NCBI RefSeq assembly: GCF_003334385.1
Contig: NZ_QOWN01000015.1
Reading direction: 5' to 3' (one strand)
DNA from: Escherichia coli
GTDB taxonomy: Bacteria > Pseudomonadota > Gammaproteobacteria > Enterobacterales > Enterobacteriaceae
DNA: 64,000 nt
Within the stretch, counting starts at the first letter, position 1. Each line of letters begins with the position of its first letter. Shown in pieces: positions 737-54,687 of this stretch. The position numbers and the translations under genes are program-made. Under the pieces are notes generated by a model. The model did not search any database. It was not told where the DNA came from and saw only the letters and a list, made by a program, of their open reading frames with translations.

Positions 737-1648
737 ATGCGACTATTTAACTGGCGACGTCAGGCGGTGTTAAACGCCATGCCACTGGTCAAACCTGACC
801 AGGTACGTACACCGTGGCATGAATTCTGGCGACGATTTCGCCGTCAGCATATGGCGATGACCGCCGCATTATTCGTTATTTTATTGATTGTGGTGGCCAT
901 TTTTGCACGCTGGATCGCTCCCTATGACGCCGAAAATTATTTTGATTATGACAATCTGAATAACGGACCTTCTTTGCAGCACTGGTTTGGCGTCGATTCA
1001 CTGGGGCGTGACATTTTCAGCCGTGTCCTGGTTGGTGCGCAAATCTCGCTGGCGGCGGGCGTGTTTGCCGTGTTTATCGGTGCGGCGATCGGGACGTTGC
1101 TGGGCTTGCTCGCTGGATATTATGAAGGCTGGTGGGATCGGCTGATCATGCGCATTTGCGATGTGCTGTTTGCCTTCCCGGGTATTTTACTGGCGATCGC
1201 TGTTGTTGCGGTGTTGGGAAGCGGCATTGCTAACGTGATTATTGCAGTCGCCATTTTTTCCATCCCCGCGTTTGCCCGCCTGGTGCGCGGCAACACGCTG
1301 GTGTTGAAACAGCAAACCTTTATTGAGTCAGCACGCAGTATTGGTGCCAGCGATATGACCGTTTTGTTGCGTCATATCCTGCCTGGGACCGTCTCTTCTA
1401 TCGTGGTGTTTTTCACCATGCGCATTGGTACCTCGATTATCTCTGCCGCCAGCCTCTCATTTCTCGGCCTCGGTGCGCAGCCGCCGACACCAGAGTGGGG
1501 AGCAATGCTCAATGAGGCTCGAGCGGATATGGTTATCGCGCCGCATGTCGCTGTTTTTCCGGCCCTGGCTATTTTTCTGACCGTACTGGCGTTCAATTTG
1601 TTGGGCGATGGTTTACGCGATGCGCTGGATCCGAAAATTAAAGGATAG
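737..1648 (+). CDS. gsiD: Glutathione ABC transporter permease GsiD
   Basis: ORF track 303 aa, DppC-like permease; length matches GsiD. Confidence 0.93.
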
Positions 1649-1825
1649 TTACGTTTGAATATTGCTTGAAAGGGTAATCACCTCACAGGAAATTATTGCC
1701 CTAAGCAAGTGTTGTAACTTTCTGCTGATTTTGTAGAATCGGGTAATTTGGTTAAAAAGCCGCAGCAAGGGACAATTTTTGCAGCGGCACAGCGTTCAGA
1801 TAGTTATTTTGTTAAATGTATTAAC

Positions 1826-4174
1826 ATGCTGAGTTTATACGAAAAGATAAAGATAAGGCTGATAATTTTATTTTTATTGGCAGCACTGTCATTTATTGGT
1901 CTTTTTTTCATCATTAACTATCAACTGGTATCGGAGCGCGCGGTAAAACGTGCCGATAGCCGCTTTGAACTTATTCAGAAAAACGTTGGCTATTTCTTTA
2001 AAGATATTGAACGTTCGGCCCTGACATTAAAGGACTCACTGTATTTATTAAAAAATACAGAGGAGATTCAACGCGCCGTGATTCTTAAAATGGAAATGAT
2101 GCCATTTTTAGACTCGGTGGGACTGGTACTTGATGATAATAAATATTATCTTTTTTCGCGGAGGGCGAATGATAAAATCGTTGTTTATCATCAGGAACAA
2201 GTAAATGGACCGCTTGTCGACGAGTCAGGGCGGGTTATTTTTGCCGATTTTAACCCATCGAAACGACCGTGGTCGGTGGCTTCAGATGACTCTAACAACA
2301 GCTGGAATCCGGCATACAATTGCTTTGATCGTCCGGGTAAAAAATGTATCTCTTTTACGCTACACATCAACGGCAAAGATCACGATTTGTTAGCGGTGGA
2401 TAAAATTCATGTCGATTTAAACTGGCGATATCTGAACGAGTATCTTGATCAAATCAGCGCTAATGATGAAGTTCTATTTTTGAAACAAGGCCATGAGATC
2501 ATTGCCAAGAATCAACTCGCTCGTGAAAAACTGATTATTTATAATAGCGAAGGTAATTATAATATTATTGATTCTGTCGATACTGAATATATCGAAAAAA
2601 CATCAGCGGTGCCAAACAACGCATTATTCGAAATCTATTTTTATTATCCTGGCGGTAATTTATTGAACGCATCAGATAAACTTTTTTATCTGCCGTTTGC
2701 GTTCATTATTATCGTATTGCTGGTGGTTTATTTAATGACCACTCGTGTGTTCCGTCGGCAATTTTCTGAAATGACAGAGCTGGTTAATACGCTGGCGTTT
2801 TTGCCTGACTCAACGGATCAAATCGAGGCTCTGAAAATTCGTGAAGGCGATGCGAAAGAGATTATCAGCATCAAAAATTCGATCGCGGAAATGAAAGATG
2901 CCGAAATTGAACGGTCAAATAAATTGCTCTCACTGATCTCTTACGATCAGGAAAGTGGTTTTATTAAAAATATGGCGATTATTGAGTCTAACAATAATCA
3001 GTATCTGGCTGTGGGGATCATCAAACTGTGTGGTCTGGAAGCCGTGGAAGCGGTGTTTGGTGTTGATGAGCGCAATAAAATCGTCAGGAAATTGTCTCAG
3101 CGAATTGCCGAGAAATATGCGCAATGCTGCGATATCGTGACATTCAATGCCGATCTCTATTTACTTCTGTGTCGGGAAAATGTACAGACATTTACCCGTA
3201 AAATAGCGATGGTAAACGATTTTGACAGCAGCTTTGGCTACCGCAATCTGCGCATCCATAAGTCTGCCATTTGTGAACCTTTGCAGGGGGAAAACGCCTG
3301 GAGTTACGCAGAAAAACTGAAACTGGCGATTTCCAGTATCCGTGACCATATGTTCTCAGAGTTTATTTTCTGTGATGACGCGAAACTCAACGAAATAGAA
3401 GAGAATATCTGGATTGCGCGTAATATTCGCCATGCAATGGAAATTGGCGAACTATTCCTCGTCTATCAACCGATCGTTGATATTAACACCCGCGCCATTC
3501 TGGGCGCGGAGGCGTTGTGCCGTTGGGTGTCTGCGGAGCGGGGGATCATTTCACCGCTGAAGTTCATTACCATTGCTGAAGATATCGGGTTTATCAATGA
3601 GCTGGGTTATCAGATTATTAAAACGGCAATGGGTGAATTCAGACATTTTAGTCAGCGTGCGTCGCTGAAGGATGATTTCTTACTGCATATTAATGTTTCG
3701 CCCTGGCAGTTAAACGAACCACACTTTCATGAGCGTTTTACCACCATCATGAAAGAAAATGGCCTGAAGGCGAACAGCCTCTGTGTTGAGATCACTGAAA
3801 CCGTGATCGAGCGAATTAATGAACATTTTTATCTCAATATTGAACAACTGCGTAAACAAGGGGTACGGATATCGATTGATGACTTTGGCACCGGTTTGTC
3901 AAACCTGAAACGTTTTTATGAAATTAATCCAGACAGCATAAAGGTGGACTCGCAATTCACCGGCGATATTTTCGGTACTGCGGGAAAAATTGTGCGCATT
4001 ATTTTCGACCTGGCACGCTATAACCGGATCCCGGTGATTGCGGAAGGCGTAGAGAGCGAAGACGTTGCGCGCGAATTAATCAAATTAGGATGTGTTCAGG
4101 CTCAGGGGTATCTGTACCAGAAACCCATGCCATTCTCCGCCTGGGATAAAAGTGGAAAATTAGTAAAAGAGTAG
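1826..4174 (+). CDS. pdeI: c-di-GMP phosphodiesterase PdeI (YliE), EAL domain with N-terminal membrane/periplasmic region
   Basis: ORF 1748..4174 trimmed to ATG at 1826 (782 aa); C-terminal EAL domain with intact EAL motif (GAEALCRW). Confidence 0.88.
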
Positions 4175-4181
4175 TTTACGT

Positions 4182-5510
4182 ATGTCCAGAATCAATAAGT
4201 TCGTACTTACAGTCAGTCTGCTGATTTTTATCATGATTTCAGCAGTTGCCTGCGGGATCTACACTCAAATGGTAAAGGAACGGGTGTATAGCCTGAAACA
4301 GTCCGTTATTGATACTGCTTTTGCGGTGGCAAATATTGCTGAATATCGGCGTAGCGTGGCAATTGATCTTATCAACACGCTAAATCCCACGGAGGAACAG
4401 CTGTTGGTTGGTTTGCGCACAGCTTACGCCGACTCGGTTTCCCCCTCTTATTTGTACGATGTCGGTCCTTATCTGATTTCCAGTGACGAATGTATTCAGG
4501 TAAAGGAGTTCGAGAAAAATTATTGTGCAGATATTATGCAGGTTGTGAAGTATCGACATGTCAAAAATACAGGGTTTATCTCTTTTGACGGTAAAACCTT
4601 CGTCTATTACCTCTATCCGGTAACTCACAATCGTAGTCTGATATTTTTGCTTGGTCTGGAGCGTTTTTCTTTACTGTCAAAATCGCTGGCGATGGACAGC
4701 GAGAACCTGATGTTCTCTCTATTTAAGAACGGTAAACCGGTGACCGGTGATGAATATAATGCTAAAAACGCCATCTTCACCGTTTCGGAAGCGATGGAGC
4801 ACTTCGCCTATTTGCCGACCGGATTGTATGTATTTGCGTATAAAAAAGATGTTTATTTGCGGGTTTGTACATTGATTATTTTCTTTGCCGCATTGGTGGC
4901 AGTGATATCGGGTGCCAGTTGCCTCTATCTGGTACGCAGAGTGATTAATCGTGGTATTGTGGAGAAAGAAGCCATCATTAATAACCATTTTGAACGCGTA
5001 CTGGATGGCGGGCTTTTCTTTTCGGCTGCCGATGTCAAAAAACTCTACAGTATGTATAACTCGGCGTTCCTGGACGACCTGACCAAAGCAATGGGCAGAA
5101 AATCCTTTGACGAAGATTTAAAAGCGCTGCCGGAAAAAGGCGGTTATTTGTGCCTGTTTGACGTCGATAAATTCAAAAACATTAACGACACCTTCGGTCA
5201 TTTGCTGGGCGATGAAGTGTTGATGAAAGTGGTGAAAATCCTTAAATCACAGATCCCGGTAGATAAAGGTAAAGTCTACCGCTTCGGCGGTGACGAATTT
5301 GCGGTGATTTATACGGGTGGAACGCTGGAAGAGTTGCTATCGATTCTAAAAGAAATCGTTCATTTCCAGGTGGGAAGCATTAATTTAAGTACCAGTATCG
5401 GTGTAGCACATTCAAATGAATGTCCTACCGTCGAACGCTTGAAAATGCTGGCGGATGAGCGGCTGTATAAGAGTAAGAAAAACGGCAGGGCACAGATTAG
5501 CTGGCAGTAA
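4182..5510 (+). CDS. dgcI: Diguanylate cyclase DgcI (YliF), GGDEF domain
   Basis: ORF 442 aa; canonical GGDEF motif (RFGGDEF); starts 8 nt after pdeI stop. Confidence 0.92.
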
Positions 5511-7588: not shown

Positions 7589-8704
7589 ATGCATCGACAA
7601 TCCTTTTTCCTTGTGCCCCTTATTTGTCTTTCTTCCGCTCTCTGGGCGGCTCCTGCAACGGTAAATGTCGAAGTACTGCAAGACAAACTCGACCATCCCT
7701 GGGCACTGGCCTTTTTACCCGATAATCACGGTATGTTAATCACTCTGCGCGGCGGCGAGTTGCGTCACTGGCAAGCAGGAAAAGGATTATCTGCGCCGCT
7801 TTCCGGAGTTCCGGACGTTTGGGCGCACGGGCAGGGCGGCCTGCTGGACGTGGTTTTAGCGCCTGATTTTGCTCAGTCTCGCCGCATCTGGTTAAGTTAT
7901 TCCGAAGTTGGCGATGATGGCAAAGCCGGAACTGCTGTGGGTTATGGCCGCTTAAGTGATGATCTCTCAAAAGTGACCGACTTCCGCACCGTCTTTCGCC
8001 AGATGCCAAAACTGTCTACCGGCAACCATTTTGGCGGGCGGCTGGTATTCGACGGTAAAGGTTATCTTTTTATTGCTCTGGGCGAAAACAATCAGCGCCC
8101 GACGGCGCAGGATCTGGATAAATTACAGGGCAAACTGGTGCGTCTGACCGACCAGGGCGAAATCCCGGATGATAATCCTTTTATAAAGGAATCCGGTGCG
8201 CGCGCCGAGATCTGGTCTTATGGCATTCGTAATCCGCAAGGAATGGCGATGAATCCGTGGAGTAATGCACTGTGGCTGAATGAACATGGCCCGCGCGGTG
8301 GTGATGAAATTAATATCCCGCAAAAAGGCAAAAACTACGGCTGGCCGCTGGCAACCTGGGGAATCAACTATTCAGGCTTTAAGATACCGGAAGCGAAAGG
8401 GGAGATCGTCGCCGGGACCGAGCAACCTGTTTTTTACTGGAAAGATTCGCCCGCTGTGAGCGGCATGGCCTTCTATAACAGCGATAAATTCCCCCAGTGG
8501 CAGCAAAAATTATTTATTGGCGCGCTGAAAGATAAAGATGTCATTGTGATGAGCGTCAACGGCGACAAAGTGACAGAAGATGGCCGTATTTTAACGGACA
8601 GAGGGCAGCGAATTCGTGATGTTCGCACTGGACCCGACGGTTATTTATACGTTCTCACCGACGAGTCCAGTGGGGAATTACTTAAAGTTAGCCCACGCAA
8701 TTAG
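7589..8704 (+). CDS. yliI: Soluble aldose sugar dehydrogenase YliI (PQQ-dependent beta-propeller)
   Basis: ORF 371 aa with N-terminal signal peptide; length matches YliI. Confidence 0.9.
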
Positions 8705-9327
8705 CTAACGGGAATCATCACCACTTTGCGCACTGCGGGGCGTTCAGTGAGTTGCTGATACCAGCGTTGCAGATTTGGACGCGGTGTCCAGGTCAGGCCA
8801 ACGTTAAACAAATTGTAGATGAACGGTGCGATAGCGATATCGCCCACACCAAACTCGTCGCCAGAGAACCATTTTACTTTTGCCAGTTCCGCATCGAGCA
8901 GGGCAAACAGGGCGTCGCACTCTTTGCAACTGGCATCAATGGCGGCCTGATCGCGCTCTTCCGGTGGTGTTCTGACTAATCCCATCAGGATCCCGCGATG
9001 AGCATTACTGAGCGTCTGGTTTGCCCAGTCCATCCATTTTTCCGCTTCCGCACGACGTGCCGGTGAGTCGATCCACAGGCGTTTTTGCCCGTACTGTGCC
9101 GCCAGATAGCGGACAATGGCGTTTGATTCCCAAAGAATGAGATCACTTTCGTCGTCACGCAACAACGGCACCAGCCCGTTAGGGTTCATCGCCAGAAAAT
9201 CAGCATCGTGATTTATCCCAAACTCACGGCCCGCGAGAATTTGCTCATAAGGTAGTTCCAGTTCTTCGAGCGTCAGCAATACTTTTTTTACGTTAGTTGA
9301 ATTATTCCGACCCCACAGCGTAATCAT
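8701..9327 (-). CDS. gstB: Glutathione S-transferase GstB
   Basis: ORF 8701..9333 trimmed to ATG (208 aa); GST fold; stop overlaps yliI stop. Confidence 0.9.
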
Positions 9328-24980: not shown

Positions 24981-25934
24981 ATGAGTACACTTGAACCTGC
25001 TGCCCAGTCGAAACCGCCGGGCGGATTTAAGCTGTGGTTGTCGCAGCTGCAAATGAAGCATGGGCGCAAACTGGTCATTGCGTTGCCATATATCTGGTTG
25101 ATCTTGCTGTTTCTGCTGCCATTTCTGATTGTCTTTAAAATAAGCCTGGCGGAGATGGCGCGCGCTATTCCACCTTATACCGAACTGATGGAGTGGGCTG
25201 ACGGGCAACTGTCCATCACTCTTAATCTCGGTAATTTTCTGCAACTGACCGACGATCCGCTCTATTTCGATGCTTATCTCCAGTCGCTACAGGTGGCTGC
25301 GATTTCGACATTTTGCTGTTTACTGATCGGCTATCCGCTGGCGTGGGCGGTGGCGCACAGTAAGCCTTCGACCCGTAATATTTTATTACTACTGGTGATC
25401 CTGCCGTCGTGGACCTCGTTTCTGATCCGCGTTTATGCCTGGATGGGAATATTAAAAAACAACGGTGTGCTGAATAATTTTCTGCTGTGGCTGGGGGTTA
25501 TCGATCAACCGCTGACCATTCTGCATACCAATCTGGCCGTTTATATCGGCATTGTTTACGCTTACGTGCCGTTTATGGTACTGCCGATTTATACCGCGTT
25601 GATTCGTATTGATTATTCGCTGGTGGAAGCAGCGCTGGATCTCGGTGCACGACCGCTGAAAACGTTCTTTACTGTGATCGTGCCGCTGACTAAAGGTGGG
25701 ATTATTGCCGGATCGATGCTGGTGTTTATCCCGGCTGTGGGCGAGTTTGTGATCCCGGAACTGCTCGGTGGCCCGGACAGCATCATGATCGGGCGCGTGC
25801 TATGGCAAGAGTTTTTCAATAACCGCGACTGGCCGGTGGCCTCGGCGGTAGCGATCATCATGTTGCTGCTGCTAATTGTGCCGATAATGTGGTTCCACAA
25901 ACACCAGCAAAAAAGCGTGGGAGAACACGGATGA
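24981..25934 (+). CDS. potH: Putrescine ABC transporter permease PotH
   Basis: ORF 317 aa. Confidence 0.93.
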   Translation: MSTLEPAAQSKPPGGFKLWLSQLQMKHGRKLVIALPYIWLILLFLLPFLIVFKISLAEMARAIPPYTELMEWADGQLSITLNLGNFLQLTDDPLYFDAYLQSLQVAAISTFCCLLIGYPLAWAVAHSKPSTRNILLLLVILPSWTSFLIRVYAWMGILKNNGVLNNFLLWLGVIDQPLTILHTNLAVYIGIVYAYVPFMVLPIYTALIRIDYSLVEAALDLGARPLKTFFTVIVPLTKGGIIAGSMLVFIPAVGEFVIPELLGGPDSIMIGRVLWQEFFNNRDWPVASAVAIIMLLLLIVPIMWFHKHQQKSVGEHG

Positions 25935-28542: not shown

Positions 28543-28641
<99 letters not shown>

Positions 28642-29594: not shown

Positions 29595-29683
29595 TGTAGG
29601 CCGGATAAGGCGTCCCCGCCGCATCCGGCACAGGCACCGTGCTGATGTCTGATGCGACGCTGGCGCGTCTTATCAGACCTACA
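29595..29683. repeat. REP/BIME element: two REP copies in opposite orientation
   Basis: TGTAGGCCGGATAAGGCGTCCCCGCCGCATCCGGCA at 29595-29630 and GATGCGACGCTGGCGCGTCTTATCAGACCTACA at 29651-29683. Confidence 0.85.
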
Positions 29684-33439: not shown

Positions 33440-33763
33440 ATGCAATTTTCTACAACCCCAACTCTGGAAGGCCAGACCATCGTTGAATATTGCGGTGTGG
33501 TGACCGGCGAAGCGATTTTAGGTGCCAATATTTTCCGTGATTTCTTTGCCGGTATCCGCGATATCGTTGGCGGACGTTCCGGTGCGTATGAAAAAGAACT
33601 GCGTAAAGCACGGGAGATCGCCTTTGAGGAATTAGGCTCCCAGGCGCGGGCGCTGGGGGCCGATGCCGTCGTCGGTATTGATATCGACTACGAAACGGTC
33701 GGGCAAAACGGCAGTATGCTGATGGTTAGCGTCAGCGGTACGGCGGTGAAAACGCGTCGATGA
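33440..33763 (+). CDS. ybjQ: UPF0145 family protein YbjQ
   Basis: ORF 107 aa; ATGA overlap with amiD. Confidence 0.88.
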
Positions 33764-34590
33764 GAAGATTCTTCTGGCTGGTCGCTGCCGCTCTGTTATT
33801 GGCAGGGTGTGCAGGCGAAAAAGGCATTGTCGAGAAAGAGGGATATCAGCTTGATACCCGACGCCAGGCGCAGGCGGCGTATCCGCGCATTAAAGTGCTG
33901 GTGATCCACTACACCGCAGATGATTTTGATAGCTCGCTGGCGACACTGACCGATAAGCAGGTCAGCTCGCATTATCTGGTCCCTGCGGTACCACCGCGAT
34001 ACAACGGTAAACCGCGCATCTGGCAACTGGTGCCGGAACAAGAACTGGCCTGGCATGCGGGGATTAGCGCCTGGCGCGGGGCAACGCGCCTTAACGACAC
34101 CTCTATTGGCATTGAGCTGGAAAACCGTGGCTGGCAAAAATCGGCCGGAGTGAAATATTTTGCCCCGTTTGAACCGGCACAGATTCAGGCGCTTATTCCA
34201 CTGGCGAAAGATATTATTGCCCGTTATCACATCAAGCCGGAAAACGTAGTGGCACATGCGGATATCGCACCGCAGCGCAAAGACGATCCGGGGCCATTAT
34301 TTCCCTGGCAGCAACTGGCGCAGCAGGGGATTGGTGCCTGGCCGGATGCGCAGCGGGTTAACTTTTACCTTGCCGGGCGCGCGCCGCACACACCGGTAGA
34401 TACCGCGTCATTGCTGGAGCTTTTGGCGCGCTACGGTTATGACGTTAAACCTGATATGACACCGCGCGAGCAGCGGCGCGTGATTATGGCATTCCAGATG
34501 CATTTCCGCCCGACGTTATATAACGGCGAAGCGGATGCAGAAACTCAGGCGATTGCCGAAGCATTGCTGGAGAAATACGGGCAGGATTAG
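33760..34590 (+). CDS. amiD: N-acetylmuramoyl-L-alanine amidase AmiD (lipoprotein)
   Basis: ORF 276 aa; lipobox LLAGC; amidase_2 domain. Confidence 0.92.
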
Positions 34591-35600
34591 CGCGGCAGTT
34601 TTCCGTGGTCGCGTAGCCAGGCGGCAGTTTTCTCGATACCTTCATCCAGGGTGATGACCGGCTGATAACCTAACTCTTCCTGCGCACGCGTAATATCCAG
34701 CGTAAAGTCAAAATTCAACTTGGAGACGCCGTAGTGGGTCAGCGGCGGCTCTTTTGCTGACTTGCGGCCTAAACGCTCCATGCTGCGGGCGATCATATCC
34801 AGCATCGGGTAGGGGACGGAACGAATACGACAGTCAATATTCAACTCGTCGATCAGCTTCTGCACGATGCTGCGCAGTGTGCGATGCTCGCCGTTGGTGA
34901 TGTTGTACACACGCCCGGAAGGTAGCTTATCGCAGGCTTCCTGGCTTGCCAGCCACATTGCGTGCACGGCATTTTCATAGTAGGTCATATCGACCAGCGC
35001 ACTGCCGCCATGCGGTAACAGAATACTGCCGTAGTGGTGCATCATATGCGCCAGACGGGGAATAAAGACTTTATCGTGCGGTCCGAACAGACTTTGTGGG
35101 CGCAGAATAGTAAAGCGCGTTTGTGGATTCGCCTGCGAAAGCATATTGATCACTTCTTCGCTGGCTGCTTTGCTGCGGGCAAACTCGTTGGCGAAGCGGT
35201 GAGGGCGAAAATCTTCTTTAATATCGCGATGGTGGTGATAATCGAAGTACAGGGAGGGGGAAGAGATATGAATAAAGTTACGCACACCCCAGGCGACAGC
35301 CCATTCACCCAGGCGGCGAGTGGCGCGAACGTTAGCCAGATCGAAAGCCTGTTGTGTCCCCCAGGGTGAGGTAAAGCTGGAGCAGTGCCACAGCGTATCA
35401 ATGCCCGCGAGCATCACTTTAGCTTGTGATGAAACCAGCTCGGTCAGATCCGCCGGAACAAACTCTGCGCCCATTTTTTCCAGCAATTTGCCCATTGCCT
35501 CGTTGCGACCGGTCGCTCGCACGCTGATGCCTTTCTGGCATAAAAACTCTACCGCGTTTCGACCTAAGCCGCTGGTGGCGCCGGTAACCAGTACCTTCAT
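34587..35600 (-). CDS. ybjS: NAD-dependent epimerase/dehydratase family protein YbjS
   Basis: ORF 34587..35663 trimmed to ATG (337 aa); Rossmann GATSGLG motif; stop overlaps amiD stop. Confidence 0.88.
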
Positions 35601-45319: not shown

Positions 45320-46978
45320 ATGATTCTTGAGCGCGTTGAAATTGTGGGTTTTCGCGGTATCAACCGTTTGTCGTTGATGCTGGAACAAAACAACGTCCTG
45401 ATTGGGGAGAACGCGTGGGGTAAATCCAGCTTGCTGGACGCCTTAACTCTGCTGCTATCGCCAGAATCAGATCTCTACCATTTTGAGCGCGACGATTTCT
45501 GGTTCCCGCCGGGAGATATCAACGGGCGAGAACATCATCTGCATATTATTTTGACCTTCCGCGAATCGCTGCCAGGCCGACATCGGGTTCGCCGTTATCG
45601 GCCGCTGGAAGCGTGCTGGACGCCATGCACCGATGGCTATCACCGTATTTTTTATCGTCTGGAAGGGGAGAGTGCGGAAGACGGCAGCGTGATGACACTG
45701 CGCAGTTTTCTCGATAAAGACGGACATCCGATTGATGTCGAGGATATTAACGATCAGGCACGCCATCTGGTGCGTTTAATGCCGGTGCTGCGCTTGCGTG
45801 ATGCCCGTTTTATGCGCCGTATTCGTAACGGCACGGTGCCAAATGTCCCTAATGTGGAAGTCACCGCGCGCCAGCTCGATTTCCTCGCCCGTGAGTTATC
45901 CTCACATCCGCAAAATCTCTCTGATGGGCAGATTCGTCAGGGACTTTCCGCAATGGTACAGCTGCTTGAGCATTATTTCTCTGAGCAGGGGGCCGGACAG
46001 GCGCGATATCGTTTAATGCGGCGGCGAGCCAGCAATGAGCAACGAAGCTGGCGCTATCTGGATATCATCAACCGGATGATTGACCGACCTGGTGGGCGCT
46101 CGTATCGGGTTATTTTGCTCGGCCTATTTGCTACTTTGTTGCAGGCAAAAGGCACATTGCGACTGGATAAAGACGCCCGTCCATTGTTGCTGATCGAAGA
46201 TCCAGAAACCCGTTTACACCCCATTATGCTTTCAGTTGCCTGGCATCTGTTGAATCTTCTGCCATTGCAGCGCATTGCCACCACCAACTCGGGTGAGTTG
46301 CTTTCGTTAACGCCGGTAGAGCATGTTTGCCGACTGGTACGTGAGTCCTCGCGCGTTGCCGCCTGGCGTCTGGGGCCGAGTGGCTTGAGTACCGAAGATA
46401 GCCGACGCATATCCTTTCACATTCGTTTTAACCGTCCGTCATCGCTGTTTGCACGCTGCTGGTTGCTGGTGGAAGGGGAAACGGAAACCTGGGTTATCAA
46501 TGAACTGGCGCGTCAGTGCGGACATCATTTTGATGCCGAAGGGATCAAGGTCATTGAGTTTGCCCAGTCCGGGCTAAAGCCACTGGTTAAATTTGCCCGC
46601 CGAATGGGGATTGAATGGCATGTACTGGTCGATGGCGATGAAGCAGGGAAGAAATATGCCGCTACGGTACGCAGCCTGTTGAATAACGATCGGGAAGCCG
46701 AACGAGAACATTTAACGGCGTTACCGGCGCTGGATATGGAACATTTTATGTATCGCCAGGGATTTTCCGATGTGTTCCACCGCATGGCGCAAATCCCGGA
46801 AAATGTACCGATGAATCTACGCAAAATTATCTCGAAAGCGATCCATCGCTCTTCCAAACCCGATCTTGCCATTGAAGTGGCAATGGAGGCAGGACGTCGT
46901 GGTGTGGACTCCGTACCGACGCTGCTGAAAAAAATGTTCTCACGCGTGCTGTGGCTGGCGCGCGGTCGCGCGGATTAA
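45320..46978 (+). CDS. ybjD: OLD-family ATPase-Toprim protein YbjD (predicted ATP-dependent nuclease, function unknown)
   Basis: ORF 552 aa; N-terminal Walker A GENAWGKSS (nt 45404-45430), Walker B-like LLLIEDPE, C-terminal Toprim-like motifs (LLVEGETE, VLVDGDEAG). Confidence 0.9.
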   Translation: MILERVEIVGFRGINRLSLMLEQNNVLIGENAWGKSSLLDALTLLLSPESDLYHFERDDFWFPPGDINGREHHLHIILTFRESLPGRHRVRRYRPLEACWTPCTDGYHRIFYRLEGESAEDGSVMTLRSFLDKDGHPIDVEDINDQARHLVRLMPVLRLRDARFMRRIRNGTVPNVPNVEVTARQLDFLARELSSHPQNLSDGQIRQGLSAMVQLLEHYFSEQGAGQARYRLMRRRASNEQRSWRYLDIINRMIDRPGGRSYRVILLGLFATLLQAKGTLRLDKDARPLLLIEDPETRLHPIMLSVAWHLLNLLPLQRIATTNSGELLSLTPVEHVCRLVRESSRVAAWRLGPSGLSTEDSRRISFHIRFNRPSSLFARCWLLVEGETETWVINELARQCGHHFDAEGIKVIEFAQSGLKPLVKFARRMGIEWHVLVDGDEAGKKYAATVRSLLNNDREAEREHLTALPALDMEHFMYRQGFSDVFHRMAQIPENVPMNLRKIISKAIHRSSKPDLAIEVAMEAGRRGVDSVPTLLKKMFSRVLWLARGRAD

Positions 46979-47967
46979 CCGCGAAACATCGTGGCCATTT
47001 GTGGCTGAATAGCGTCGAGCATCTCATAGCGCCGACGGTATTCAGCCCGTTTTTTACTGGCGATTTCGGCAATCTCTTTTCGTGCTATCTGTGCTGGAAG
47101 GCGGTAATGGCGTTCAGCATCACATACGCCGCCAACCGATTCCCAGAAAGCGTTGTAATCAGCGTGGATCTTGCCTTCTTTATCGCGATAACGCAGGCTG
47201 CGGTAAATATGCGTTTCATTGCTGACGGCAATAATCTGCTCTACCTGCAAACGTTGGGCAAACAGACAGGCCGCTTCCATCACGAGGCGTTTGGGAAATA
47301 GCCCGTGGCAGGCTTTCGTCGCATTCTGGATTTCCTGATGTGGAATTTCCCATTTTGCGCCTTGCAGTCCGCCAATAAACATCGTTCTTTTCCCCTGATA
47401 TTCACACAGGGTAAACGTGATCTCTGCCAGAGGAATACCTTCGCTGTTGCGGAACAGGATTGTGCTGTCACCTTCTTTATCCATTGAGATCATCATGGTC
47501 AGCTCAAGCGTGAACTGCTCGCCGTTTTTGCCTTCCAGCTTCGCCAGTTGCAGCCCGGGGGTATTCAAATATAAGCTGAATTCTTCCGCCGACATACATT
47601 CGCGGAGTAACGCATAATGGTAACGTAACGCCTCCAGCAATTGCTTACGGCTAAGATTCGCCGCAAGGTAAGGGCGATGCAGACGCACAGGCAGTCGCGG
47701 CTGGCGCGTTAACAATACATTGAGATTAGGCCAGTGGGAAAGTTCGTTCATCCACTCAACGCTTAAACGCGGCATAATCAACGAGCGCAGCAAAAATTTC
47801 TGGCGAAAACTACGGCGATGCCAGAATTTACCCGGCCGACACTGTCCACGTGCCAGACTAAGAAAAAGTGACAGGCTGCTGAGAGATTCAGATGGCGTAA
47901 AGGTCCGTTCAGTTAGCTGCGACATATTCATGAAATCAATGGTTATACATGGCGTCGATTTCACCAT
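46975..47967 (-). CDS. ybjX: VirK/DUF535-family protein YbjX
   Basis: ORF 330 aa; length and position match ybjX; stop overlaps ybjD stop. Confidence 0.88.
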   Translation of the reverse strand: MVKSTPCITIDFMNMSQLTERTFTPSESLSSLSLFLSLARGQCRPGKFWHRRSFRQKFLLRSLIMPRLSVEWMNELSHWPNLNVLLTRQPRLPVRLHRPYLAANLSRKQLLEALRYHYALLRECMSAEEFSLYLNTPGLQLAKLEGKNGEQFTLELTMMISMDKEGDSTILFRNSEGIPLAEITFTLCEYQGKRTMFIGGLQGAKWEIPHQEIQNATKACHGLFPKRLVMEAACLFAQRLQVEQIIAVSNETHIYRSLRYRDKEGKIHADYNAFWESVGGVCDAERHYRLPAQIARKEIAEIASKKRAEYRRRYEMLDAIQPQMATMFRG

Positions 47968-48081: not shown

Positions 48082-49197
48082 ATGAAAAAGCGGAAAACCG
48101 TGAAGAAGCGTTACGTTATTGCGCTGGTGATAGTCATCGCCGGACTGATTACGTTATGGAGAATTCTTAACGCACCCGTGCCGACTTATCAGACGCTGAT
48201 TGTGCGCCCCGGTGATTTACAGCAAAGCGTGCTGGCGACCGGAAAGCTGGACGCGCTGCGTAAGGTTGATGTGGGCGCGCAGGTCAGCGGTCAGTTGAAA
48301 ACTCTGTCGGTGGCGATTGGCGATAAAGTAAAAAAAGACCAGCTTTTAGGGGTTATTGATCCTGAACAGGCTGAAAACCAGATTAAGGAGGTCGAAGCAA
48401 CGCTGATGGAGCTACGTGCGCAGCGGCAGCAGGCGGAAGCGGAGCTGAAACTGGCGCGGGTGACGTATTCCCGTCAGCAACGTCTGGCACAAACGAAGGC
48501 TGTTTCACAGCAGGATCTCGACACCGCCGCGACGGAGATGGCTGTGAAACAGGCGCAAATTGGCACCATTGACGCGCAAATCAAGCGCAATCAGGCTTCT
48601 CTCGATACGGCTAAAACCAATCTCGATTACACTCGCATCGTTGCCCCGATGGCCGGGGAAGTCACGCAAATCACCACTCTGCAAGGCCAGACGGTGATTG
48701 CCGCACAACAAGCACCGAACATTCTGACGCTGGCAGATATGAGCACCATGCTGGTAAAAGCGCAGGTTTCTGAAGCGGATGTAATCCACCTGAAGCCGGG
48801 GCAAAAAGCCTGGTTTACGGTGCTTGGCGATCCACTGACGCGCTACGAGGGGCAAATCAAGGATGTACTACCGACGCCGGAAAAGGTTAACGACGCTATT
48901 TTCTATTACGCCCGTTTTGAAGTCCCCAACCCCAATGGTTTGCTGCGGCTGGATATGACTGCGCAAGTGCATATTCAGCTCACCGATGTGAAAAATGTGC
49001 TGACGATCCCTCTGTCGGCGTTAGGCGATCCGGTTGGCGATAATCGTTATAAAGTCAAATTGTTGCGTAATGGTGAAACACGCGAGCGTGAAGTGACGAT
49101 TGGCGCACGTAACGATACCGATGTTGAGATTGTCAAAGGGCTTGAAGCGGGCGATGAAGTGGTGATTGGTGAGGCCAAACCAGGAGCTGCACAATGA
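48082..49197 (+). CDS. macA: Macrolide efflux membrane fusion protein MacA
   Basis: ORF 48055..49197 trimmed to ATG 48082 (371 aa). Confidence 0.92.
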
Positions 49198-54599: not shown

Positions 54600-54687
54600 G
54601 TTCACTGCCGTACAGGCAGCTTAGAAATTCACAGGTAACATACTCCACCCGCCCACCATGTTCACTGCCGTACAGACAGATAAAATG
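54600..54687 (+). CRISPR. Vestigial type I-F CRISPR array: 2 repeats, 1 spacer of 32 bp, no cas genes
   Basis: Repeat 1 GTTCACTGCCGTACAGGCAGCTTAGAAA (54600-54627) matches the I-F consensus; spacer 54628-54659; repeat 2 (54660-54687) identical in the first 16 nt then degenerate, as expected for a terminal repeat. Confidence 0.85.

What the first reader, a model, noticed from the sequence alone, without database searches (positions are those of the whole stretch)
46975..46978. Three convergent gene pairs share overlapping stop codons
Three convergently transcribed pairs terminate on the same four nucleotides. yliI/gstB share TTAG at 8701-8704, amiD/ybjS share TTAG at 34587-34590, and ybjD/ybjX share TTAA at 46975-46978. 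None has an intervening terminator, so the two transcripts must overlap at their 3' ends, which implies mutual antisense or transcriptional interference. Separately, several co-directional pairs show ATGA stop-start overlaps (potH/potI, macA/macB, ybjQ/amiD), consistent with translational coupling.
Basis: seen in the sequence. Interest (0 to 1): 0.25.

Follow-up and report, generated by a model that had tools for sequence, protein, structure and literature searches.

The report
Convergent genes sharing overlapping stop codons
Three pairs of E. coli genes that face each other end on the same four bases, which is a common, already catalogued way of packing genes tightly, and published RNA data already show that their transcripts run into each other and are mostly stopped by the Rho factor.

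Summary
The window is an E. coli K-12-like chromosome (window position + 871153 = NC_000913.3). yliI/gstB (TTAG, 8701-8704), amiD/ybjS (TTAG, 34587-34590) and ybjD/ybjX (TTAA, 46975-46978) each share a 4-nt stop-stop overlap, and the three ATGA stop-start overlaps are also real.

[CT]TA[AG] is the shortest possible convergent overlap. It constrains only two wobble positions and is a described class (Lillo & Krakauer 2007). In an evenly spaced 500-kb sample of MG1655, 5 of 74 convergent junctions had it. Three in 64 kb is therefore a mild fluctuation (P about 0.03; about two such windows expected per genome).

Transcript overlap is already documented. All three pairs are in the 2025 ExcludonFinder list. 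Bicyclomycin data place Rho termination regions 375-880 nt inside the partner gene for four of the six directions. Strand-specific RNA-seq shows raised antisense signal over yliI, ybjS and ybjD.

The ybjD/ybjX overlap holds in all 11 Enterobacteriaceae loci examined. The other two junctions vary between genera (-4, 0, +2, +39 with a bidirectional terminator).

No data show mutual repression for these pairs. Verdict: real, ordinary and already known.

The parts
46975..46978 (.). TTAA shared by the ybjD stop (TAA, + strand, 46976-46978) and the ybjX stop (TAA, - strand, complement of 46975-46977)
   Evidence: The same 4-nt register is present in all 11 Enterobacteriaceae loci examined (TTAA, or CTAG in RIT691).
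45320..46978 (+). ybjD CDS (OLD/GajA-like ATP-dependent endonuclease). The C-terminus ...MFSRVLWLARGRAD is invariant across genera.
46975..47967 (-). ybjX CDS (VirK/YbjX family, PhoPQ-activated). Its C-terminal residues vary between genera but the stop stays in the same place.
47001..47055 (+). Candidate intrinsic terminator for ybjD embedded in the ybjX ORF: a hairpin at 47001-47049 (-26.9 kcal/mol) followed by T6 at 47050-47055
   Evidence: Pairing is kept in 90% of cells across 12 sequences, but there are no compensatory changes and the result is no better than shuffles. No Term-seq 3' end is listed under ybjX. Inferred, not shown.
46093..46093 (-). Published Rho termination region (NC_000913.3 917246, - strand) antisense to ybjD, 882 nt past the ybjX stop. 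Rho score 15.9, P 7e-53. Positional resolution is hundreds of nt.
   Evidence: PMC7815308 Supplementary file 2; distance computed
8701..8704 (.). TTAG shared by the yliI stop (TAG, +) and the gstB stop (TAA, -)
   Evidence: The junction 41-mer is present in 5388 of 5426 E. coli genomes.
7589..8704 (+). yliI CDS (aldose sugar dehydrogenase)
8701..9327 (-). gstB CDS (glutathione S-transferase; 208 aa in all orthologues listed)
8253..8253 (-). Published Rho termination region (879406, - strand) antisense to yliI, 448 nt past the gstB stop
   Evidence: PMC7815308 Supplementary file 2
8626..8672 (-). Strong stem-loop (-25.5 kcal/mol) in the gstB read-through RNA, 29-75 nt past its stop. It has no U tract, so it is not an intrinsic terminator. 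It may act as a 3'-protective stem.
   Evidence: only partly kept in other genera. The role is inferred only.
34587..34590 (.). TTAG shared by the amiD stop (TAG, +) and the ybjS stop (TAA, -)
   Evidence: The junction 41-mer is present in 5412 of 5426 E. coli genomes.
33760..34590 (+). amiD CDS. Its start also overlaps the ybjQ stop in ATGA at 33760-33763.
34587..35600 (-). ybjS CDS (NAD-dependent epimerase/dehydratase family)
34965..34965 (+). Published Rho termination region (906118, + strand) antisense to ybjS, 375 nt past the amiD stop
   Evidence: PMC7815308 Supplementary file 2
33936..33936 (-). Published Rho termination region (905089, - strand) antisense to amiD, 651 nt past the ybjS stop
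   Evidence: PMC7815308 Supplementary file 2
25931..25934 (+). ATGA stop-start overlap, potH/potI
49194..49197 (+). ATGA stop-start overlap, macA/macB

Best explanation
These are ordinary zero-spacer convergent junctions. The stop codons TAA and TAG contain the self-complementary dinucleotide TA. Whenever a gene ends in Y-TA-R, the opposite strand therefore reads a stop codon (TAR) shifted by one base. This makes 4 nt the shortest possible tail-to-tail overlap. It fixes only the wobble base of each gene's last sense codon, so it costs almost nothing.

When the spacer between two converging genes is lost, an ORF in the right frame is caught by this ready-made antisense stop. In the other frames it would have to read tens of codons into the partner, and selection removes that outcome.

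Because no terminator can sit between the genes, each RNA polymerase runs on into the partner's coding region. The ribosome has already left at the stop codon, so the RNA beyond it is untranslated and Rho can load and terminate within a few hundred nucleotides. For ybjD, an intrinsic terminator embedded in ybjX may do this job instead.

The resulting antisense RNA and double-stranded RNA are by-products. Any effect on the partner's expression is secondary and has not been demonstrated.

Shown: the geometry, the enrichment of the 4-nt class, the read-through, the Rho dependence and the small RNA duplexes. Inferred: the spacer-loss origin and the absence of a selected regulatory role.
For: Geometry and cost:
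- Overlaps of 1-3 nt are impossible given stop-codon composition.
- 23 of 59 window genes (39%) already end in [CT]TA[AG].
- The run-in model gives P(4 nt) = 0.13 and otherwise a median overlap of 64 nt.
- Observed share of 4-nt overlaps among overlapping convergent pairs: 5/13 in the independent sample, 8/16 including the window.
- The class and its four tetramers are described in PMC2174442.

Junction plasticity:
- yliI/gstB is -4 in E. coli. It is also -4 in Salmonella, but with a YliI tail 6 aa longer and a fragmented yliI. It is 0 in Cronobacter and Enterobacter and +2 in Klebsiella.
- amiD/ybjS is -4 in E. coli, Klebsiella and Enterobacter and 0 in Serratia. In Cronobacter it is +39, and the spacer is a textbook bidirectional terminator.
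- So the exact overlap is dispensable and is reached repeatedly.

Termination:
- There are no terminator-like sites above shuffle expectation near the junctions.
- Rho termination regions lie 375-882 nt downstream for 4 of 6 directions.
- The read-through RNA has C/G of 1.08-1.28 in 5 of 6 directions, against 0.78-1.07 in the sense CDS.

Read-through:
- Antisense RPM over the weaker partner is 16-38, against 1-8 for neighbouring genes.
- p19-captured small duplexes map in the 3' part of yliI and across ybjS.

No sign of strong interference: both partners are co-detected, and there is no rise in rnc mutants.
Against: - The ybjD/ybjX 4-nt register is kept in all 11 Enterobacteriaceae loci examined, down to 48% YbjX identity, even though the YbjX tail sequence changes. 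This could reflect selection for the arrangement rather than simple purifying selection on two stop codons.
- ExcludonFinder reports that, as a class, excludon pairs are co-expressed in single cells less often than other neighbouring pairs.
- Even where the exact overlap is lost, most relatives keep terminator-less junctions (0 to +2 nt). Transcript overlap itself is therefore more conserved than the 4-nt overlap.
- Rho regions were called for only 4 of 6 directions, with coarse (800-nt window) resolution.
Confidence: 0.8

Rival explanations
1. Selected excludons. The terminator-less overlap is maintained because read-through from one gene represses the other, by RNA polymerase collision or RNase III cleavage of the duplex, giving mutually exclusive expression of each pair.
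For: - All three pairs are in the ExcludonFinder core list. That paper reports less single-cell co-expression for excludon pairs as a class.
- The ybjD/ybjX register is deeply conserved.
- Antisense over ybjD, yliI and ybjS is high.
- p19-captured duplexes map in yliI and ybjS.
- ybjX is inducible through PhoPQ, so its read-through into ybjD would be conditional.
Against: - No pair-specific anticorrelation data were found.
- Both partners are detected together in bulk RNA-seq, and sense RPM does not rise in the rnc-14 or rnc-38 mutants.
- The functions of the paired genes have no evident reason to be exclusive.
- Two of the three junctions vary freely between genera, and one relative carries a bidirectional terminator.
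- p19-captured dsRNA is on average far lower in convergent 3' overlaps than in divergent 5' overlaps.
Confidence: 0.12
2. The three overlaps cluster here because of a regional property of this part of the chromosome, such as local compaction, a deletion bias or a shared history, rather than by coincidence.
For: - 3 of 11 convergent junctions in the window have the overlap, against 5 of 74 in the sample (P = 0.03).
- If the true genome-wide count is near the low end of the confidence interval (15), P falls to 0.001.
Against: - Two of the ten sampled 50-kb regions each hold two such pairs, so small clusters are common.
- About two windows with three or more are expected genome-wide at the point estimate.
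- The three junctions have different phylogenetic depths, so they did not arise together.
- ExcludonFinder reports no regional enrichment of excludons.
Confidence: 0.05
3. Annotation artefact. One gene of each pair really ends earlier or later, and the shared tetramer is a product of ORF calling.
For: Nothing specific. The YbjX C-terminal residues are poorly conserved.
Against: - Stop codons, unlike start codons, are unambiguous once the frame is known.
- Orthologues keep the same lengths and C-termini: GstB is 208 aa everywhere and ends ...IPV[ST]; AmiD ends ...LLEKYGQ[DG]; YbjS ends ...DHGKL[PH]R; YbjD ends ...GRAD.
- RefSeq annotates both genes at the junction in every E. coli record listed, and the junction 41-mers are present in 4360-5412 of 5426 genomes.
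Confidence: 0.02

Closest known systems
4-nt convergent (tail-to-tail) gene overlaps, tetramers CTAA/TTAA/CTAG/TTAG (Lillo & Krakauer 2007, PMC2174442; earlier surveys by Fukuda 2003 and Johnson & Chisholm 2004 are cited from my own knowledge and)
   Same: Exactly this arrangement: two stop codons on opposite strands sharing four bases. That paper counts 58 convergent overlaps in E. coli and notes that any terminator must lie in the partner's coding sequence.
   Different: Nothing structural. The only local feature is three instances within 64 kb, which is within sampling expectation.
Convergent excludons / overlapping 3' transcription of convergent operons (ExcludonFinder 2025, PMC12288877; Conway 2014, PMC4161252)
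   Same: Neighbouring convergent genes whose transcripts overlap. yliI-gstB, amiD-ybjS and ybjD-ybjX are named in Table 1. Conway found that 276 of 370 convergent operons overlap, by 286 nt on average.
   Different: The defining functional feature, reciprocal repression, has not been shown for these pairs. Here the overlap is forced by overlapping coding sequences rather than by long 3' UTRs.
Rho-dependent termination of untranslated or antisense read-through (Peters 2012, as cited in PMC7815308; Adams 2021, PMC7815308)
   Same: Bicyclomycin-sensitive termination regions antisense to the partner gene, a few hundred nt past the stop. 51.5% of all Rho regions in that data set are antisense to genes.
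   Different: None; these are four of the 1078 listed regions.
Bidirectional intrinsic terminators between convergent genes (Ju 2019, as cited; Wang et al. 2022, bioRxiv 10.1101/2022.10.23.513370)
   Same: They solve the same problem of ending two converging transcripts. The Cronobacter amiD/ybjS junction has one.
   Different: It is absent in the window, because there is no intergenic DNA and no A-tract/hairpin/T-tract element at the junctions.
ATGA stop-start overlaps and translational coupling by termination-reinitiation (Huber et al. 2023, PMC10666635)
   Same: potH/potI, macA/macB and ybjQ/amiD have the canonical -4 co-directional overlap. Two of the three pairs encode subunits of one complex.
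   Different: Coupling was not measured here.

Membership tests
4-nt convergent stop-stop overlap class | Two protein-coding genes on opposite strands whose stop codons both lie within one [CT]TA[AG] tetramer | tested here: met
4-nt convergent stop-stop overlap class | Both ORFs are real genes with conserved C-termini, not spurious antisense ORFs | tested here: met
   Orthologue lengths and C-termini; RefSeq annotation across E. coli
Convergent excludon | Transcripts of the two neighbouring genes overlap | tested here: met
   From published data read here, not from a new experiment: ExcludonFinder Table 1; antisense RPM; Rho regions inside the partner genes
Convergent excludon | Expression of one gene lowers expression of the other (mutually exclusive expression) | not testable with these tools
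   No pair-specific data were found. Bulk RNA-seq shows both partners expressed together, which neither proves nor excludes exclusion at the single-cell level.
Convergent excludon | The duplex is processed by RNase III, with an effect on mRNA level | tested here: inconclusive
   p19-captured ~21-nt duplexes map in yliI, ybjS and amiD. Sense RPM does not increase in rnc-14 or rnc-38. These are single data sets normalised as RPM.
Bidirectional intrinsic terminator | G+C-rich hairpin flanked by an A tract and a T tract, lying between the two stops | tested here: not met
   There is no intergenic DNA. Scans and folds show none at the junctions. Cronobacter has one at the amiD/ybjS junction.
Intrinsic terminator embedded in the partner ORF (ybjD only) | Stable hairpin immediately followed by a U tract downstream of the stop, with a mapped 3' end | tested here: inconclusive
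   Hairpin of -26.9 kcal/mol plus U6 at 47001-47055; z = -2.6 for the 140-nt region. No covariation. No Term-seq 3' end is listed under ybjX.
Rho-dependent terminator | Read-through increases on bicyclomycin treatment | tested here: met
   PMC7815308 Supplementary file 2 covers the gstB, amiD, ybjS and ybjX directions. The yliI and ybjD directions are not listed.
Rho-dependent terminator | C-rich, G-poor untranslated RNA upstream of the termination region | tested here: met
   C/G is 1.08-1.28 in 5 of 6 read-through RNAs. The amiD direction is 0.93.
Translationally coupled co-directional pair (ATGA) | The stop of the upstream gene and the start of the downstream gene share ATGA | tested here: met
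Translationally coupled co-directional pair (ATGA) | Downstream translation depends on upstream translation | not testable with these tools
   Requires reporter or ribosome-profiling experiments

The most novel reading that the evidence does not exclude
The ybjD/ybjX overlap is conserved at the same register across Enterobacteriaceae despite a changing YbjX tail. It could be a selected conditional switch. PhoPQ-induced ybjX transcription reads about 0.9 kb antisense into ybjD, a core-genome GajA/OLD-like nuclease, and would lower its expression under low Mg2+ or host conditions. That would tie an envelope-stress regulon to the control of a defence-like nuclease.
Probability: 0.08. Interest if true: 0.45.

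Novelty: already known. Interest (0 to 1): 0.1.

Why it matters
It matters little beyond housekeeping. The result is a useful reminder that in E. coli roughly one convergent junction in ten to fifteen has no spacer at all. At such junctions termination is handed to Rho, or to a terminator hidden in the partner's coding sequence, so knock-outs, insertions or promoter swaps in one gene of such a pair can disturb the other. If the excludon reading were true for ybjD/ybjX, it would link PhoPQ signalling to a GajA-like nuclease, but nothing here shows that.

Tried and rejected
- SMRT-Cappable-seq supplements (PMC6131387) hold no entry for any of the six genes.
- The supplements of Conway 2014 and of ExcludonFinder are not held as text. 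Per-pair overlap lengths and single-cell ratios could therefore not be read.
- The Adams 2021 Term-seq tables list no 3' end under these gene names. Only the Rho table does.
- Terminator-like consensus hits near the junctions are no more frequent than in shuffled sequence.
- The small palindrome CGCGG-ATTAA-CCGCG that centres on the TTAA (46969-46983) looked like a possible signal. It is broken in another E. coli lineage (L003) and has no U tract on either strand, so I rejected it as chance.
- The covariation test on the ybjD-downstream hairpin gave 0 compensatory pairs and no excess over shuffles. The structure may simply reflect ybjX coding constraints.
- Rfam finds nothing at any junction.
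- The genome-contig scan with YbjX returned only 13 loci and missed Salmonella and Klebsiella because of its exact-peptide seeds. The conservation statement therefore rests on 11 loci.
- A full-genome count of -4 convergent pairs was not possible, because annotation can only be read 50 kb at a time. A pre-planned design of ten evenly spaced regions was used instead.
Full report
**Identity of the window and check of the observation**

The window is an Escherichia coli K-12-like chromosome segment. It aligns without indels to NC_000913.3, with window position + 871153 equal to the genome coordinate. It differs by 13 bases in the first 46.8 kb and 4 in the last 19 kb.

- yliI (7589-8704, +) and gstB (8701-9327, -) share TTAG at 8701-8704.
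- amiD (33760-34590, +) and ybjS (34587-35600, -) share TTAG at 34587-34590.
- ybjD (45320-46978, +) and ybjX (46975-47967, -) share TTAA at 46975-46978.

RefSeq annotates the same gene ends in MG1655. The three ATGA stop-start overlaps (potH/potI at 25931, macA/macB at 49194, ybjQ/amiD at 33760) are also present.

**Why four bases**

A plus-strand stop (TAA, TAG or TGA) and a minus-strand stop (seen on the plus strand as TTA, CTA or TCA) cannot share 1, 2 or 3 bases, because the letters are incompatible. The first possible overlap is 4 nt, and only as [CT]TA[AG].

In this register, the only bases shared with sense codons are the wobble base of each gene's last codon. I tested how special this is with the 59 annotated genes of the window:
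- 23 genes (39%) already end in [CT]TA[AG], so they carry a ready-made stop for a gene arriving on the other strand.
- A converging ORF entering in a random frame would end at exactly 4 nt in 13% of cases.
- Otherwise it would not end until a median of 64 nt (mean 99 nt) inside the partner.

The 4-nt state is therefore the one cheap outcome of losing the spacer. The class and its four tetramers are described in the literature. Lillo & Krakauer (PMC2174442) report a discontinuity at length 4 in convergent overlaps and count 58 convergent overlaps in E. coli. They also note that any terminator must then lie in the partner's coding sequence.

**Is three in one window unusual?**

I read the MG1655 annotation at ten evenly spaced 50-kb regions fixed in advance, 100001 + k x 450000. 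These 500 kb hold:
- 74 convergent junctions in total.
- 5 with a 4-nt overlap: zapC/ycbX, yccX/tusE, mntP/rlmA, exoX/ptrB and gutQ/norR. The tetramers of the first four (CTAA, TTAA, TTAA, TTAG) were checked.
- 8 with longer overlaps (7-38 nt).

That is about 10 per Mb, or roughly 46 genome-wide (95% interval 15-108). It gives 0.64 expected per 64 kb, P(>=3) = 0.027, and about two such windows per genome. Two of the sampled 50-kb regions each contain two. The cluster is a mild fluctuation, not a signal. By contrast, the share of 4-nt overlaps among overlapping convergent pairs (5 of 13 in the independent sample) exceeds the 13% of the run-in model (P = 0.02). This fits selection against longer overlaps.

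**Conservation**

Within E. coli the junctions are essentially fixed. 41-mers centred on the tetramers are found in 5388, 5412 and 4360 of 5426 complete genomes. The lineages that lack the exact ybjD/ybjX 41-mer and were read still have TTAA.

Across genera the three junctions behave differently.

*ybjD/ybjX.* It keeps the 4-nt register in all 11 Enterobacteriaceae loci recovered. These are several Escherichia species, three Citrobacter, and two deep-branching isolates in which YbjX is only 48% identical. One of those two uses CTAG instead of TTAA. YbjD always ends ...GRAD. Because Asp is GAY, Asp plus TAR always creates the antisense stop. The last residues of YbjX change freely.

*yliI/gstB*:
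- -4 in E. coli.
- -4 in Salmonella, but with a YliI tail six residues longer, in a strain where yliI is broken into fragments.
- 0 in Cronobacter and Enterobacter.
- +2 in Klebsiella.

*amiD/ybjS*:
- -4 in E. coli, Klebsiella and Enterobacter.
- 0 in Serratia.
- +39 in Cronobacter, where the spacer is a textbook bidirectional terminator (A tract, AACGCCGC/GCGGCGTT hairpin, T tract).

So the exact overlap is dispensable. It is gained with different tails in different lineages, and in one relative it is replaced by the conventional solution. This is what the antisense stop trap predicts. The steady ybjD/ybjX register can be explained by purifying selection on two stops that cannot be moved independently. 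Selection for the arrangement itself is not excluded.

**What the transcripts do**

There is no intergenic DNA, and terminator-like consensus sites near the junctions are no more frequent than in shuffled sequence. Published data, read here, show the consequences.

*Rho.* In the bicyclomycin DirectRNA-seq data of Adams et al. (PMC7815308, Supplementary file 2), Rho termination regions lie at four places:

| Genome position and strand | Antisense to | Distance past the upstream stop |
|---|---|---|
| 879406 (-) | yliI | 448 nt past gstB |
| 906118 (+) | ybjS | 375 nt past amiD |
| 905089 (-) | amiD | 651 nt past ybjS |
| 917246 (-) | ybjD | 882 nt past ybjX (Rho score 15.9, P 7e-53) |

Positions are approximate, because the scores use 800-nt windows. 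The read-through RNAs are C-rich relative to G in five of six directions, as expected for antisense of coding sequence.

*Antisense RNA.* In the strand-specific RNA-seq of Huang et al. (PMC7373196, Table S1c), WT sense/antisense RPM are as follows:

| Gene | Sense RPM | Antisense RPM |
|---|---|---|
| yliI | 33.6 | 32.8 |
| gstB | 105.9 | 4.1 |
| amiD | 95.7 | 2.1 |
| ybjS | 47.0 | 15.9 |
| ybjD | 80.8 | 38.5 |
| ybjX | 519 | 7.4 |

In each pair the stronger gene lays antisense RNA over the weaker one. p19-captured ~21-nt duplexes map in the 3' part of yliI and across ybjS.

*Catalogues.* All three pairs, and mdfA-ybjH from the same window, appear in the ExcludonFinder list of 165 convergent excludons of MG1655 (PMC12288877). 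Conway et al. had already found that 276 of 370 convergent operons overlap at their 3' ends, by 286 nt on average.

**One refinement**

Folding the RNA downstream of each stop shows a good candidate intrinsic terminator for ybjD inside the ybjX ORF. It is a hairpin at 47001-47049 (-26.9 kcal/mol) followed by T6 at 47050-47055, and z = -2.6 for the surrounding 140 nt.

Pairing potential is kept in 90% of cells across 12 Enterobacteriaceae sequences. There are no compensatory changes and no excess over shuffles, so coding constraints on YbjX may explain it. No Term-seq 3' end is listed there.

If the terminator is real, it would explain why no Rho region is listed for the ybjD direction and why antisense signal over ybjX is low. 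Even then the two mRNAs overlap by about 80 nt.

A strong stem-loop without a U tract lies 29-75 nt past the gstB stop (8626-8672, - strand). It is not a terminator.

**Interference**

- Both partners are detected together in bulk RNA.
- Sense levels do not rise in two RNase III mutants.
- p19-captured dsRNA is on average much lower in convergent 3' overlaps than in divergent 5' overlaps.
- ExcludonFinder reports reduced single-cell co-expression for excludons as a class, with acknowledged low coverage. No per-pair values were available.

**Verdict**

The structural inference, that transcripts must overlap, is right and already documented. The functional inference, mutual interference, is untested. 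The arrangement is a known, frequent by-product of stop-codon sequence and spacer loss, with termination delegated mainly to Rho.

The most novel reading left open is that PhoPQ-induced ybjX conditionally silences the GajA-like nuclease gene ybjD through the conserved overlap. I give this a probability of about 8%.

Noticed in passing
window 45320-46978 (+): YbjD matches the PADLOC Gabija GajA model PDLC00094 at E 6.8e-80, and also an Old model. It is nevertheless a core gene, present in 5425 of 5426 E. coli genomes. It has no adjacent GajB-like helicase; its only tight neighbour is ybjX.
   Followed up: partly
window 54600-54627 and 54660-54679 (+): Two copies of a CRISPR-like direct repeat spaced 60 nt apart lie between clpA and tRNA-Ser (serW). 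The first scores 50 bits against Rfam CRISPR-DR4. No cas genes are nearby. From my own knowledge this looks like the known orphan I-F array remnant of K-12.
   Followed up: partly
L022 3518-3556 (Cronobacter dublinensis): The amiD/ybjS junction here carries a 39-nt spacer that is a textbook bidirectional intrinsic terminator (AAAAAATAACGCCGC-GTTCT-GCGGCGTTTTCAT). E. coli, Klebsiella and Enterobacter have a 4-nt overlap instead.
   Followed up: yes
L016 3124-3811 (Salmonella enterica): yliI is broken into three short GSDH fragments (57, 52 and 51 aa) in this Salmonella contig. The last fragment still overlaps the gstB stop by 4 nt (CTAA), with a tail six residues longer than in E. coli.
   Followed up: partly
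window about 47824-47848 (NC_000913.3 918977-919001): The very high p19-captured dsRNA signal for ybjX (1252-3424 RPM) comes from a hot spot near its 5' end, not from the 3' junction. This suggests a separate antisense or divergent overlap on the macA side.
   Followed up: no
window 16823-16901 (-): The RybB sRNA (Rfam, 105 bits) sits in the convergent junction between rcdA and ybjL, 19 nt after the rcdA stop. A Rho region at 887972(-) is listed as antisense to rcdA.
   Followed up: no
window 28577-28619 and 29599-29679 (+): Rfam hits to ES036 (CssrF) and naRNA4 (CssrE) lie on either side of artJ. They were not examined further.
   Followed up: no
   Followed up: partly
window 46969-46983: A perfect small palindrome, CGCGG-ATTAA-CCGCG, is centred on the shared TTAA. 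It has no U tract on either strand and is broken in another E. coli lineage (L003), so it is judged to be chance.
   Followed up: yes
whole window: The window is not MG1655 itself. It differs from NC_000913.3 by about 17 substitutions over 64 kb, with no indels.
   Followed up: partly
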